Shown one piece after another: positions 8,783-9,724 of a DNA stretch of 41,632 nucleotides (its first letter is position 1; each line of letters starts with the position of its first letter). A program made the translations under genes and the position numbers. The stretch covers positions 1 through 41,632 of IMG/VR virus record IMGVR_UViG_2547132279_000012. One strand, given 5' to 3'. The stretch comes from a virus (Duplodnaviria; Heunggongvirae; Uroviricota; Caudoviricetes). The notes below the pieces were generated by a model. The model saw nothing but the letters and a program-made list of their open reading frames with translations, ran no database searches and was not told the DNA's origin.

Positions 8783-9724
8783 ATGAGCACTAAATTAACC
8801 GGCTATGTATGGGATGGTTGCGCAGCGTCAGGCATGAAATTATCCAGCGTGGCAATTATGGCACGCCTGGCTGATTTCAGTAATGACGAAGGTGTGTGCT
8901 GGCCATCAATTGAAACCATTGCCCGCCAGATTGGCGCGGGGATGAGTACCGTCAGAACGGCTATCGCACGGCTGGAAGCAGAAGGCTGGTTAACGCGTAA
9001 GGCGCGTCGCCAGGGTAACCGCAATGCGTCGAATGTTTATCAGCTTAACGTTGCGAAGCTTCAGGCTGCGGCTTTTTCTCAACTGTCAGATTCTGACCCG
9101 TCAAAATCTGACGCATCAAAATCTGACCCGTCAAAATTTGATGCGTCGAAATCTGGCAAAAAAGCGGGTTTTCACCCGTCAGAATCTGGCGGGGATCCGT
9201 CAGTAAAATCAAAACATGATCCGTCAGATAAAAAAACTTCTCGTCCGGACGCTTCGCAACCGGACACGCAGAAGGCTGAACAGGATTTTTTAACTCGCCA
9301 TCCTGATGCGGTTGTATTCAGCCCTAAAAAGCGCCAGTGGGGGACGCAGGATGATTTGACCTGCGCACAGTGGCTCTGGAAAAAAATCATCGCCCTGTAC
9401 GAGCAAGCCGCCGAATGTGACGGCGAGGTGGTTCGTCCCAAAGAACCGAACTGGACAGCCTGGGCAAACGAAATTCGCCTGATGTGTGTGCAGGATGGTC
9501 GTACTCACAAACAAATCTGCGAGATGTACAGCCGCGTCAGCCGCGATCCGTTCTGGTGCCGTAACGTGCTCAGCCCGTCGAAGCTGCGGGAAAAATGGGA
9601 TGAGCTTTCCCTGCGCTTATCGCCGTCCGTCAGCACGTACACCGAAAAACGCGAAGACCCGTACTTCAAAGCCAGTTACGACAACGTGGACTACAGCCAG
9701 ATCCCGGCAGGATTCAGGGGGTGA
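8783..9724 (+). CDS. Replication initiation protein (lambda O-like, winged-helix N-terminus) containing origin iterons
   Basis: N-terminal wHTH region; 15 bp tandem repeats inside the gene encode the SDPSKSDASKSDPSKFDASKS repeat, as in lambdoid ori-in-O arrangements. Confidence 0.7.
   Translation: MSTKLTGYVWDGCAASGMKLSSVAIMARLADFSNDEGVCWPSIETIARQIGAGMSTVRTAIARLEAEGWLTRKARRQGNRNASNVYQLNVAKLQAAAFSQLSDSDPSKSDASKSDPSKFDASKSGKKAGFHPSESGGDPSVKSKHDPSDKKTSRPDASQPDTQKAEQDFLTRHPDAVVFSPKKRQWGTQDDLTCAQWLWKKIIALYEQAAECDGEVVRPKEPNWTAWANEIRLMCVQDGRTHKQICEMYSRVSRDPFWCRNVLSPSKLREKWDELSLRLSPSVSTYTEKREDPYFKASYDNVDYSQIPAGFRG
9086..9193. repeat. Replication-origin iterons (five tandem 15 bp TCAAAATCTGACCCG-like repeats plus degenerate copies, followed by an A-rich tract)
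   Basis: Direct tandem repeats at 9086-9160 with further copies at 9179-9193 and about 9199-9213; A-rich stretch at 9225-9240. Confidence 0.6.

What the first reader, a model, noticed from the sequence alone, without database searches (positions are those of the whole stretch)
9086..9213. Replication origin iterons embedded in the O-like initiator gene
Five tandem 15 bp repeats (consensus TCAAAATCTGACCCG, 9086-9160) plus degenerate copies at 9179-9213 are followed by an A-rich tract. In the protein they appear as a pentapeptide repeat (SDPSKSDASKSDPSKFDASKS). This is the lambdoid ori-within-O arrangement and fixes the probable replication origin.
Basis: partly seen in the sequence, partly recalled or inferred. 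Interest (0 to 1): 0.4.

Follow-up and report, generated by a model that had tools for sequence, protein, structure and literature searches.

The report
Phage replication origin inside initiator gene
The repeats are real and are almost certainly the initiator-binding sites of this prophage's replication origin, lying inside the initiator gene as in phage lambda; this is an ordinary layout, but it belongs to a common, unstudied phage class that has no helicase-loader gene.

Summary
Five 15-bp-spaced copies of a 13-bp palindrome (GTCARAATCTGAC) lie at 9085-9157, with a sixth at 9178-9190. Two GATC-headed, A-rich 24-nt repeats follow at 9194-9241. All lie in the linker of the 313-aa initiator gene (8783-9724) of an SfII/SfIV-like prophage.

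The strongest evidence comes from 76 homologous genes across Enterobacterales. Their synonymous sites are saturated in both flanking protein domains. They are almost frozen across codons 99-160 (about 9077-9262), except in the spacer codon between sites. No alternative reading frame is kept open there. So the DNA itself is under selection.

The array always travels with the N-terminal winged-helix domain, while at least three unrelated C-terminal domains are swapped in behind it. Sister families carry different palindromic repeats at the same place.

The "O-like" label is half right. The C-terminal domain is homologous to lambda O, but the DNA-binding domain is Pfam HTH_36 rather than Phage_rep_O, and no P, helicase or loader gene is present.

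It is a new member of a known kind.

One side lead: the initiator ends in SQIPAGFRG, matching 8 of the last 9 residues of host DnaT.

The parts
8783..9724 (+). Initiator gene (313 aa). It has an N-terminal winged-helix DNA-binding domain (aa 1-98), a repeat-encoding linker (aa 99-160) and a lambda-O-type C-terminal domain (aa ~170-277).
   Evidence: ORF. Pfam HTH_36 at aa 23-70. PHROG 391 'replication initiation O-like' over the full length. BLASTP to lambda O, E = 3e-26, over aa 70-277. 99% nt identity to SfIV gp41.
9085..9157 (.). Iteron array: five 13-bp palindromic sites at 9085-9097, 9100-9112, 9115-9127, 9130-9142 and 9145-9157, with 15-bp spacing. Consensus GTCARAATCTGAC.
   Evidence: The array is present in the same codon phase in the 76 relatives (438 of 439 sites). 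Codons TCA-AAA-TCT-GAC are fixed at synonymous sites.
9158..9177 (.). Spacer holding an A6 run then a T4 run (GCAAAAAAGCGGGTTTTCACCC). Its sequence varies among relatives apart from TTT-SAC-CCG.
   Evidence: The minus-strand hairpin plus T-run reported here is not kept in relatives.
9178..9190 (.). Isolated sixth site GTCAGAATCTGGC, 33 bp after the last array site.
   Evidence: In relatives the last site lies 33 or 48 nt after the last array site detected. Codons 133-135 have synonymous identity 0.95-1.0.
9194..9241 (.). Two 24-nt direct repeats, each beginning with GATC and followed by an A-rich run (GATCCGTCAGTAAAATCAAAACAT / GATCCGTCAGATAAAAAAACTTCT). This is the candidate DNA-unwinding element.
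   Evidence: family D7. The least stable duplex in the gene is 9200-9245. Synonymous identity is mostly 0.85-1.0 across codons 138-151, lowest 0.76. Two GATC sites 24 nt apart occur in 62 of 76 relatives.
9077..9262 (.). Full extent of the DNA-level constraint island, taken as the whole cis-acting element.
   Evidence: Mean synonymous codon identity is 0.42 in the N-domain and 0.78-0.90 in the three segments of codons 99-156. It falls back to about 0.25-0.55 after codon ~161.
9695..9721 (+). C-terminal tail SQIPAGFRG of the initiator, matching 8 of the last 9 residues of E. coli DnaT. It is a candidate host-factor docking motif.
   Evidence: A GF[RK] tail is present at the C-terminus of 50 of 75 relatives, across the main C-terminal domain types.
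8614..8793 (+). DUF4222 small ORF (59 aa) whose stop overlaps the initiator start. It is a conserved upstream neighbour of this initiator type.
   Evidence: Pfam DUF4222, E = 8.6e-19. Found ending at or near the initiator start in almost all of the 74 loci (of 86) where it was detected.

Best explanation
Window 9077-9262 is the replication origin of this SfII/SfIV-like lambdoid prophage, embedded in the linker-coding part of its only replication gene.

Shown:
- Six copies of a 13-bp palindrome lie at 15-bp spacing, five in an array and one 33 bp beyond it.
- Two GATC-headed, A-rich 24-nt repeats follow and form the least stable duplex in the gene.
- The whole ~185-bp stretch is under DNA-level purifying selection.
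- It is inherited as one unit with the N-terminal winged-helix domain.

Inferred:
- Dimers of the initiator's HTH_36 winged-helix domain occupy the palindromes and build a lambda 'O-some'-like nucleoprotein complex.
- That complex strains and opens the adjacent GATC/A-rich segment on supercoiled DNA.
- The host DnaB helicase is loaded there.

The phage has no P, DnaC-like or helicase gene. Helicase recruitment must therefore go through host factors bound by the initiator's C-terminal part, meaning the lambda-O-type domain and/or the DnaT-like SQIPAGFRG tail. This last step is the least supported.
For: 1. The repeats are far above chance and clustered (14 hits against 2.7 expected, 11 of them in 9085-9190).

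2. The DNA is under selection. In 76 distinct homologous genes, the fraction of same-amino-acid pairs that use the same codon averages 0.42 over 91 N-domain codons, and none reaches 0.85. Across codons 99-156 it averages 0.78-0.90, and 60% of columns reach 0.85 (Mann-Whitney p = 3.5e-20). In 53 genes that share one C-terminal domain type, the value drops back to 0.25-0.55 after codon ~161.

3. Inside the island, the spacer codons between sites (106, 111, 116, 121) and G136 are as variable as the flanks (0.37-0.6), next to codons fixed at 0.9-1.0. This fits site-specific selection, not recent shared ancestry of the segment.

4. No overlapping gene explains it. Frames +2, +3 and -1 have stops in 76 of 76 genes, -2 in 74 of 76, and -3 in 44 of 76.

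5. The site consensus GTCARAATCTGAC is a near-perfect palindrome, as expected for a dimeric winged-helix protein. 438 of 439 sites sit in the same codon phase.

6. The parts are modular. The N-domain and the array stay together while at least three unrelated C-terminal domains are exchanged. mEp460_4F5 shares only window 9228-9724 and has its own N-domain and its own repeats.

7. Specificity co-varies. Sister HTH_36 initiators (phi24B O, ST64B/mEp460, Vibrio D75) carry different palindromic repeats at the same position.

8. The layout matches lambda, whose four annotated iterons the same tool recovers. P22 and phage L are described the same way (bioRxiv 10.1101/2020.10.05.325894). O binding to such iterons is shown experimentally for lambda and Stx phages (PMC7466680).

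9. The least stable duplex in the gene lies directly downstream of the sites.

10. The window has no other comparable repeat cluster.
Against: - There is no experimental evidence for this family. I found no paper that names an origin for SfII, SfIV or SfV; the SfIV genome paper does not mention one.
- The 'AT-rich' element is weak: about 60% A+T over 60 bp, and only z +1.6 in duplex instability. Several intergenic spots in the early region are equally unstable.
- The 15-bp spacing is unusual. Lambda and the sister families use 20-24 bp. It puts neighbouring sites on nearly opposite faces of the helix, so the binding unit is ambiguous: TCARA-W-TCTGA or TCTGA-CNNN-TCARA.
- Covariation between symmetric positions is only weak (pair 1-13: 54 observed against 45.6 expected, reached by 95 of 2000 shuffles; pair 5-9: reached by 9 of 2000).
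- The link between recognition-helix Arg58 and the outer G is not clean.
- No helicase loader is encoded, and replication of such O-only lambdoid phages is stated to be not understood (PMC12315714). Initiation could therefore differ from the lambda scheme.
Confidence: 0.75

Rival explanations
1. The repeats are only a slippage-generated, low-complexity (SDxSK)n protein linker between two domains. On this reading the DNA repeat is a by-product with no cis function.
For: The peptide is a pentapeptide repeat in a region that a low-confidence single-sequence model leaves unstructured. Copy number varies from 3 to 10 among relatives, as slippage would produce.
Against: Protein-only selection cannot freeze synonymous positions: Ser is always TCA at one repeat position and TCT at the other, and Lys is always AAA. 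The same genes' domain codons are saturated. The amino-acid-variable codon is also the nucleotide-variable one, so the constraint follows the palindrome, not the peptide.
Confidence: 0.05
2. The conserved DNA island is a module-junction ('linker') sequence. On this reading it is kept similar by frequent homologous recombination between mosaic lambdoid phages, not by origin function.
For: Mosaic breakpoints fall at its 3' edge: mEp460_4F5 shares the window from 9228 onward and phiNP up to about 9261. Different C-terminal domains are joined just after it. The last ~35 bp (9228-9262) are similar across C-domain types.
Against: Recent exchange would homogenise every position. Instead, saturated spacer codons alternate with fixed ones. 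The fixed positions form a palindrome repeated in phase. The array's copy number and sequence diverge with the N-domain. The two roles do not exclude each other, and the 3' ~35 bp may well serve as a junction.
Confidence: 0.08
3. The palindromes are operator-type sites. The initiator's winged-helix domain would bind them for autoregulation, a transcriptional roadblock or copy control, while DNA synthesis starts elsewhere or by a recombination- or PriA-dependent route.
For: The phage has no helicase loader, and the replication of O-only lambdoids is unknown (PMC12315714). The AT-rich element is weak. No DnaA or IHF consensus sites accompany the repeats. The C-terminal tail resembles the restart protein DnaT.
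Against: The position and layout are those of experimentally defined lambdoid origins (PMC7466680). The constraint extends 70 bp beyond the binding sites into a GATC/A-rich segment that an operator would not need. Sister families keep a comparable conserved element after their repeats. No other repeat cluster in the window offers an alternative origin.
Confidence: 0.1
4. The constraint acts on RNA, as an mRNA structure or an antisense transcript within the initiator gene.
For: The strand folds better than shuffles (z = -4.6). A terminator-like hairpin plus T-run lies on the minus strand at 9178-9165.
Against: The fold is the trivial result of tandem palindromes. The hairpin and T-run are not kept in relatives, and the spacer is the least constrained part of the element. 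There is no Rfam match and no promoter-like site nearby.
Confidence: 0.02

Closest known systems
Phage lambda ori within gene O (also the Stx phages 933W and P27)
   Same: Palindromic direct repeats lie in the middle of the initiator ORF, downstream of the DNA-binding domain, with an easily melted A/T-rich segment on the distal side (PMC7466680). [quoted passage not shown]
   Different: The N-terminal DNA-binding domain belongs to another family: HTH_36 rather than PF04492, with no profile similarity. Sites are 13 bp at 15-bp spacing, against 18-19 bp at 20-24 bp in lambda. The A/T-rich part is weaker and carries two conserved GATC sites. No P gene follows.
P22 gene 18 and phage L gene 18 origins
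   Same: These are described as initiator genes that each contain their own family-specific iterons, four of ~20 bp in P22 and six of 11 bp in L (bioRxiv 10.1101/2020.10.05.325894). The principle of one specificity domain with its cognate repeats in the same gene is the same.
   Different: Those phages encode a DnaB-type helicase (gene 12) next to the initiator; this one does not. The repeat sequences are unrelated.
'O-only' lambdoid replication modules (phage LLS, mEp460_4F5; 34 of 314 Enterobacterales lambdoids)
   Same: The replication module is a single gene, an O homologue, with no helicase or loader. The window's C-terminal half is 97% identical at the DNA level to that of mEp460_4F5. 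The class is described in PMC12315714 as experimentally unstudied.
   Different: That paper does not mention iterons or an origin. mEp460_4F5 has a different N-domain and different repeats.
HTH_36-type 'O' proteins of phi24B/Min27, ST64B Sb42, SfV Orf39 and mEp460 gp43
   Same: They share the N-terminal winged-helix family (39-43% identity over aa 25-94) and the same gene layout: wHTH, then 3-5 palindromic repeats, then a conserved post-repeat element, then a variable C-terminal domain.
   Different: The repeat sequence and spacing differ (21-24 bp). The post-repeat element is GAACCAGTCA-type rather than GATCCGTCAG-type. phi24B and SI5 encode a primase-helicase and lack the GFRG tail.
Iteron-type plasmid origins (RepA/RepE/pi family)
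   Same: A winged-helix initiator binds directly repeated sites next to an unwinding element.
   Different: Plasmid iterons lie outside the rep gene, are usually ~17-22 bp in helical phase, and are accompanied by DnaA boxes. Here the spacing is 15 bp, the sites are inside the ORF, and no DnaA-box enrichment is seen.

Membership tests
Lambdoid 'origin inside the initiator gene' (lambda/P22 type) | Three or more direct repeats with internal dyad symmetry located within the initiator ORF | tested here: met
   Six sites matching GTCARAWTCTGAC with up to 2 mismatches lie at 9085-9190, inside ORF 8783-9724. The palindromic consensus comes from 439 sites.
Lambdoid 'origin inside the initiator gene' (lambda/P22 type) | [quoted passage not shown] | tested here: met
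   HTH_36 covers aa 23-70. The repeats encode aa 101-136. The lambda-O-like domain covers aa ~170-277.
Lambdoid 'origin inside the initiator gene' (lambda/P22 type) | An A/T-rich, easily unwound segment directly downstream of the repeats | tested here: inconclusive
   9200-9245 is the least stable 45-bp duplex in the gene, but only z +1.6 and 60% A+T. It is weaker than lambda's (-55.1 against -51.5 kcal/mol).
Lambdoid 'origin inside the initiator gene' (lambda/P22 type) | Repeat sequence is specific to, and inherited with, the initiator's DNA-binding domain | tested here: met
   The array is present in the 76 relatives of the N-domain whatever their C-terminal domain. Other N-domain families carry other repeats.
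Lambdoid 'origin inside the initiator gene' (lambda/P22 type) | The cis element is selected as DNA, independently of the encoded protein | tested here: met
   There is an island of synonymous-site conservation at codons 99-160, flanked by saturated sites. No alternative frame is conserved.
Lambdoid 'origin inside the initiator gene' (lambda/P22 type) | The initiator binds the repeats and replication starts there | not testable with these tools
   This needs EMSA or footprinting, a mini-replicon assay, or origin mapping after induction.
Lambda O protein family | N-terminal Phage_rep_O domain (Pfam PF04492) | tested here: not met
   There is no PF04492 hit at E <= 0.01, whereas lambda O scores 5.7e-36 in the same scan. 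hhalign of the N-domain profile against the lambda O N-terminus gives probability 0.04%.
Lambda O protein family | C-terminal domain homologous to lambda O (the P-interacting domain, from established knowledge of lambda) | tested here: met
   BLASTP E = 3e-26. The WGT..DLT..W / PN..WAN.IRLM..DGR.H / NVLSP.KLR.KW blocks align.
Lambda O protein family | A partner helicase-loader gene (P) immediately downstream | tested here: not met
   The downstream genes are PerC-like, LexA-DBD-like, RusA, KilA-N and HNH/DUF968. No loader or helicase is annotated anywhere in SfIV or vB_EcoM-689R6.
HTH_36 / PHROG 391 'replication initiation O-like' proteins | A match to the family profiles | tested here: met
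   PF13730 scores E = 4.3e-11, above its cut-off. phrog_391 scores E = 9.4e-136 over the full length.
Iteron plasmid replicons (RepA/pi type) | Iterons outside the rep ORF, in helical phase (~22 bp), with DnaA boxes | tested here: not met
   The sites are inside the ORF with 15-bp spacing. DnaA-box-like matches are at chance level and there is no cluster at the element.

The most novel reading that the evidence does not exclude
O-only lambdoid phages such as this one may load the host helicase without any phage loader. The origin-bound initiator would display a short C-terminal tail (SQIPAGFRG) that copies the C-terminus of the host primosome protein DnaT (SQIPPGFRG). That would plug the origin directly into the host factor the DnaT tail normally contacts, for example PriA/PriB or DnaC-DnaB. 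On this reading the 9077-9262 element is a sequence-specific entry point into the replication-restart loading pathway, not a lambda-type O-P-DnaB origin.

Supporting hints:
- The tail is kept on initiators with the main C-terminal domain types: 50 of 75 genes, with only one GF[RK] elsewhere in 23,076 residues.
- It is absent from lambda O, phi24B O and SI5, which have their own loader or helicase.
- One relative ends instead in an SSB-tail-like ...DDDFI.
Probability: 0.2. Interest if true: 0.7.

Novelty: new member of a known kind. Interest (0 to 1): 0.42.

Why it matters
It locates the probable origin of a very common prophage type. The element is found in 2057 of 5426 complete E. coli genomes, in the Shigella serotype-converting phages SfII and SfIV, and, as an orphan copy, in the K-12 CPS-53 yfdO remnant.

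That type belongs to the 'O-only' lambdoid class, whose replication a 2025 paper calls not understood (PMC12315714). A defined ~185-bp element, a defined 13-bp site and a candidate host-docking tail make that question directly testable with a mini-replicon.

The layout itself, iterons inside the initiator gene, is textbook and will not surprise a specialist.

Tried and rejected
- **Overlapping gene as the cause of synonymous constraint.** Rejected, because every alternative frame is interrupted in most or all relatives.
- **Antisense terminator at 9178-9165.** Rejected, because it is not conserved in relatives.
- **DnaA boxes and IHF sites at the element.** None found above chance.
- **Known RNA family.** None; the only Rfam hit in the window is a tRNA at 1369-1441.
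- **Homology of the N-domain to the lambda O N-domain.** Not detected.
- **Solved structures.** Only weak MarR-type winged-helix matches.
- **Single-sequence AlphaFold model.** Mean pLDDT was 44, too poor for a fold search. Only its secondary structure (helix-turn-helix plus a beta wing, then no regular structure across aa 102-162) agrees with the domain picture.
- **Plasmids that use this initiator as their replicon.** The hit examined in detail, pKqq_SB1124_5, is a circularised lambdoid prophage with an integrase; the other hits were not inspected individually. This is not independent evidence.
- **Identity with the Rac prophage origin oriJ.** The K-12 hit is the CPS-53 yfdO remnant, not Rac.
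- **A clean amino-acid-to-base covariation (Arg58 with the outer G).** Suggestive only, with exceptions (L005, L085, L086).
- **Literature on the function of the extreme DnaT C-terminal tail.** Nothing specific found in the papers consulted (PMC13377028, PMC4132743).
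Full report
**What the window is.** The 41.6-kb window is an integrated lambdoid prophage of the SfII/SfIV/SfV group of Shigella and E. coli temperate phages. The gene at 8783-9724 is 99% identical at the DNA level to SfIV gp41 and 98.5% to the SfII homologue. The first 25 kb match vB_EcoM-689R6, SfII and SfIV at 96-98%. A tRNA at 1369-1441 lies at the integrase end of the phage-matching DNA, which begins at window 1399.

The gene order around the finding is:
- cI-like repressor, 6844-7536 (minus strand)
- cro-like gene, 7634-7894
- CII/CP76-like gene, 7887-8438
- DUF4222 small ORF, 8614-8793
- initiator, 8783-9724
- PerC-like gene, 9721 onward
- LexA-DBD-like gene, then RusA, a KilA-N protein and an HNH/DUF968 protein

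Tandem Repeats Finder gives a 15-nt (or 30-nt) period array at 9092-9155. The repeat finder places copies in register at 9086, 9101, 9116, 9131 and 9146, with a further one at 9179. The natural unit is a 13-bp palindrome, GTCAGATTCTGAC at 9085-9097, and successive sites are 15 bp apart. Searching GTCARAWTCTGAC with up to two mismatches gives 14 strand-hits in the window against 2.7 +/- 1.8 in shuffles. Eleven of them lie at six sites between 9085 and 9190.

This stretch has the lowest GC in the gene (0.40) and the least stable duplex in the gene (9200-9245). It is much less extreme than lambda's A/T-rich region.

**Is it more than a protein linker?** This is the key test. An alignment of the N-terminal domain was used to scan one genome per bacterial species, which fetched 80 prophage loci across Enterobacterales (N-domain identity 52-100%). 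Six phage loci were added. Together with the window this gave 76 distinct genes. All but two have at least five such sites; those two have 3 and 4, and the range is 3-10. The sites form an array at 15-bp spacing, and the last site lies 33 or 48 nt after the last array site detected. 438 of 439 sites sit in the same codon phase.

In a codon alignment I measured, column by column, how often two sequences with the same amino acid also use the same codon.
- Across the N-domain (91 informative columns) the mean is 0.42, and no column reaches 0.85. Synonymous sites there are essentially saturated.
- Across codons 99-156 the three segment means are 0.78-0.90, and 60% of columns reach 0.85 (Mann-Whitney p = 3.5e-20).
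- Serine is TCA at one repeat position and TCT at the other in nearly every sequence. Lysine is AAA and aspartate is mostly GAC.
- The codon between sites (P/A/T/G) is as variable as the flanks, at 0.4-0.6.

In the 53 genes that share one C-terminal domain type, the value returns to 0.25-0.55 after about codon 161. The constrained island therefore spans about 9077-9262. It includes the spacer's TTT-SAC-CCG, the isolated site, both GATC repeats and some 20 bp beyond them.

No alternative reading frame is kept open. There is no Rfam match. The one terminator-like hairpin in the spacer is not conserved. The alternation of fixed and saturated codons argues against simple recent transfer of the segment. 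The DNA sequence itself is under selection.

**What binds it.** The consensus from 439 sites is GTCARAATCTGAC, a near-perfect palindrome. That is what a dimeric winged-helix protein would recognise.

The N-terminal 100 residues match Pfam HTH_36, with weaker hits to GntR/MarR-type winged helices, the DnaD N-domain and the replication protein C N-domain. The array is always inherited with this domain. The C-terminal domain behind it is of at least three unrelated types:
- lambda-O type, as in this window
- Phg_2220_C type
- an 'EYSPEFEQAW' type

Conversely, mEp460_4F5 shares the window's sequence only from 9228 onward. It has a different N-domain and its own GGTCAAARTGAC-type repeats.

Sister HTH_36 initiators carry different palindromic repeats at the same place:
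- phi24B O: GGGGCAGGAGCTGCCC, three copies
- ST64B and mEp460: GTGCA...TTCAC-type, four or five copies
- Vibrio phage D75: GTGACAAAATGTCAC, three copies

Each of these is followed by a nearly invariant GAACCAGTCA-type element. That element is 77-88% identical at the DNA level between phages whose N-domain third positions are only ~0.4 identical. This is the pattern of specificity domain plus cognate iterons known from lambda, P22 and phage L (bioRxiv 10.1101/2020.10.05.325894). O binding to such iterons has been shown by footprinting for lambda and Stx phages (PMC7466680). As a positive control, the same repeat finder recovers lambda's four annotated iterons.

Within the family, lineages whose outer site base changes from G to T (TTCA...TGAA or TCCA...TGGA) mostly have a changed residue in the putative recognition helix (STVRT to STVIT, STVTT or STVYG). 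There are exceptions, so I treat this only as a hint. Formal covariation between symmetric positions is weak.

**How far the 'O-like' label goes.** The C-terminal domain (aa ~170-277) is clearly homologous to that of lambda O (BLASTP E = 3e-26). The N-terminal domain is not. It gives no PF04492 hit, whereas lambda O scores 5.7e-36 in the same scan, and no profile-profile similarity.

In lambda, the C-terminal domain of O recruits P, which brings in DnaB (established knowledge). Here there is no P, DnaC-like or helicase gene, either next to the initiator or anywhere in the closely related annotated genomes. This single-gene module is a recognised but unstudied class. PMC12315714 counts 34 of 314 Enterobacterales lambdoid phages with only an O homologue, and states that replication of this type 'is not yet understood'. 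That paper does not mention iterons or an origin, and the SfIV genome paper does not either.

**Mechanism proposed.**
- Shown: the architecture, the DNA-level constraint, and the linkage of the array to the winged-helix domain.
- Inferred: initiator dimers fill the five array sites and the isolated site. The resulting complex distorts the DNA. The adjacent GATC/A-rich repeats (9194-9241) open, and host DnaB is loaded there.

The binding register is uncertain. The array is an unbroken alternation of inverted 5-bp half-sites, TCARA and TCTGA. Their centres are alternately 6 and 9 bp apart, so either TCARA-W-TCTGA or TCTGA-CNNN-TCARA could be the dimer site. The 15-bp spacing is shorter than the 20-24 bp of lambda and the sister families and puts neighbouring sites on nearly opposite faces of the helix.

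The two GATC sites, 24 nt apart, are conserved in 62 of 76 relatives. Many relatives encode an adenine methyltransferase directly after the initiator. A Dam/SeqA-type input is therefore possible but untested.

**A lead on the missing loader.** The initiator ends in ...DYSQIPAGFRG. E. coli DnaT, the primosome protein that links PriA/PriB to DnaB-DnaC, ends in ...PDSQIPPGFRG. Eight of the last nine residues are identical, and there is no other similarity between the two proteins.

A GF[RK] tail closes 50 of 75 complete family members, across the main C-terminal domain types. The tripeptide occurs only once elsewhere in their 23,076 residues. The 3'-terminal 76 nt of the gene are shared at 97-98% identity with many phages whose initiators are otherwise unrelated at the DNA level. 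Lambda O, phi24B O and SI5, which come with a loader or helicase, lack the tail. Most tail-less family members end in a different conserved helix, IW(K/Q)xxxxQ, and one ends in an SSB-tail-like DDDFI.

I found nothing in the papers I read about what the extreme DnaT tail binds. This remains a hypothesis: the tail is a short docking motif that lets the origin-bound initiator use a host loading pathway.

**Rivals.**
- A pure protein linker is excluded by the synonymous-site result.
- A recombination junction is partly plausible for the last ~35 bp, where mosaic breakpoints fall. It does not explain the phased palindromes or the alternation of fixed and free codons.
- An operator-only role, with initiation elsewhere, cannot be excluded without experiments. 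It is disfavoured by the extra 70 bp of constrained non-site DNA and by the absence of any other repeat cluster.
- An RNA-level role has no support. The strong single-strand fold (z = -4.6) is a by-product of the tandem palindromes.

**Spread.** The 261-bp core (9040-9300) is found in 2057 of 5426 complete E. coli genomes, mostly at 95-99% identity. One form is the K-12 CPS-53 (KpLE1) remnant. Its yfdO pseudogene keeps the entire element, but its similarity to the window begins only at about window position 9016, so the N-terminal DNA-binding domain is missing. It is an orphan origin.

**Verdict.** This is a new, unannotated member of a well-known kind of origin, in a phage class whose helicase-loading step is an open question. 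The origin call itself is ordinary. The defined element and the DnaT-like tail make the open question testable.

Noticed in passing
window 9695-9721: The initiator's last nine residues, SQIPAGFRG, match the C-terminus of E. coli DnaT (SQIPPGFRG) at 8 of 9 positions. The tail is kept in 50 of 75 relatives across the main C-terminal domain types. It is absent from O-like proteins that come with their own loader or helicase.
   Followed up: partly
window 8614-8793 (overlaps ORF 8435-8773): A 59-aa DUF4222 ORF ends on the initiator's start codon, and does so at or near the start in almost all of the 74 loci (of 86) where it was detected. It overlaps, in another frame, the 112-aa ORF that the SfIV record annotates as gp40. 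Its role, possibly an accessory replication factor, is unknown.
   Followed up: partly
window 10021-10023: The PerC-like gene after the initiator carries a CAG-to-TAG nonsense change relative to SfIV (165 aa there, 100 aa here), so it is probably a pseudogene in this prophage.
   Followed up: yes
window 9195-9198 and 9219-9222: Two GATC (Dam) sites exactly 24 nt apart head the two A-rich repeats and are conserved in 62 of 76 relatives. Many relatives encode an adenine methyltransferase directly after the initiator, but this window does not.
   Followed up: partly
L098 4978-5685 (E. coli K-12-type CPS-53/KpLE1, yfdO): The K-12 cryptic prophage keeps the complete origin element and the O-type C-terminal half, but similarity to the window begins only at about window 9016, so the N-terminal DNA-binding domain is missing. 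The core element occurs in 2057 of 5426 complete E. coli genomes.
   Followed up: yes
L009 2292-2339, L010 2307-2354, L012 2265-2312: Sister initiator families with unrelated iterons share a nearly invariant post-iteron DNA element (CCCAGAACCAGTCACTCTTTTGAACCAGTCAA, with GAACCAGTCA repeats). It is 77-88% identical between E. coli, Salmonella and Vibrio phages whose N-domain third positions are saturated. It is probably the counterpart of window 9194-9241.
   Followed up: partly
L061, L004, L026, L062 and others (C-termini of relatives): Family members without the GFRG tail mostly end in another conserved motif, IW(K/Q)xxxxQ. One (L061) ends in ...GGTDDDFI, which resembles the SSB C-terminal tail. 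This suggests interchangeable short docking tails.
   Followed up: no
L075 and L088 (initiator genes): Some relatives have expanded arrays, with 10 and 9 sites respectively. L088 uses a 30-nt double unit (ATCAGAGTCTGAA / GTCAGAACCTCAG), so copy number and unit structure are evolutionarily labile.
   Followed up: no
window 1369-1441: A tRNA gene (Rfam, 71.8 bits) lies at the integrase end of the phage-matching DNA, which begins at window 1399. It is probably the integration target.
   Followed up: no
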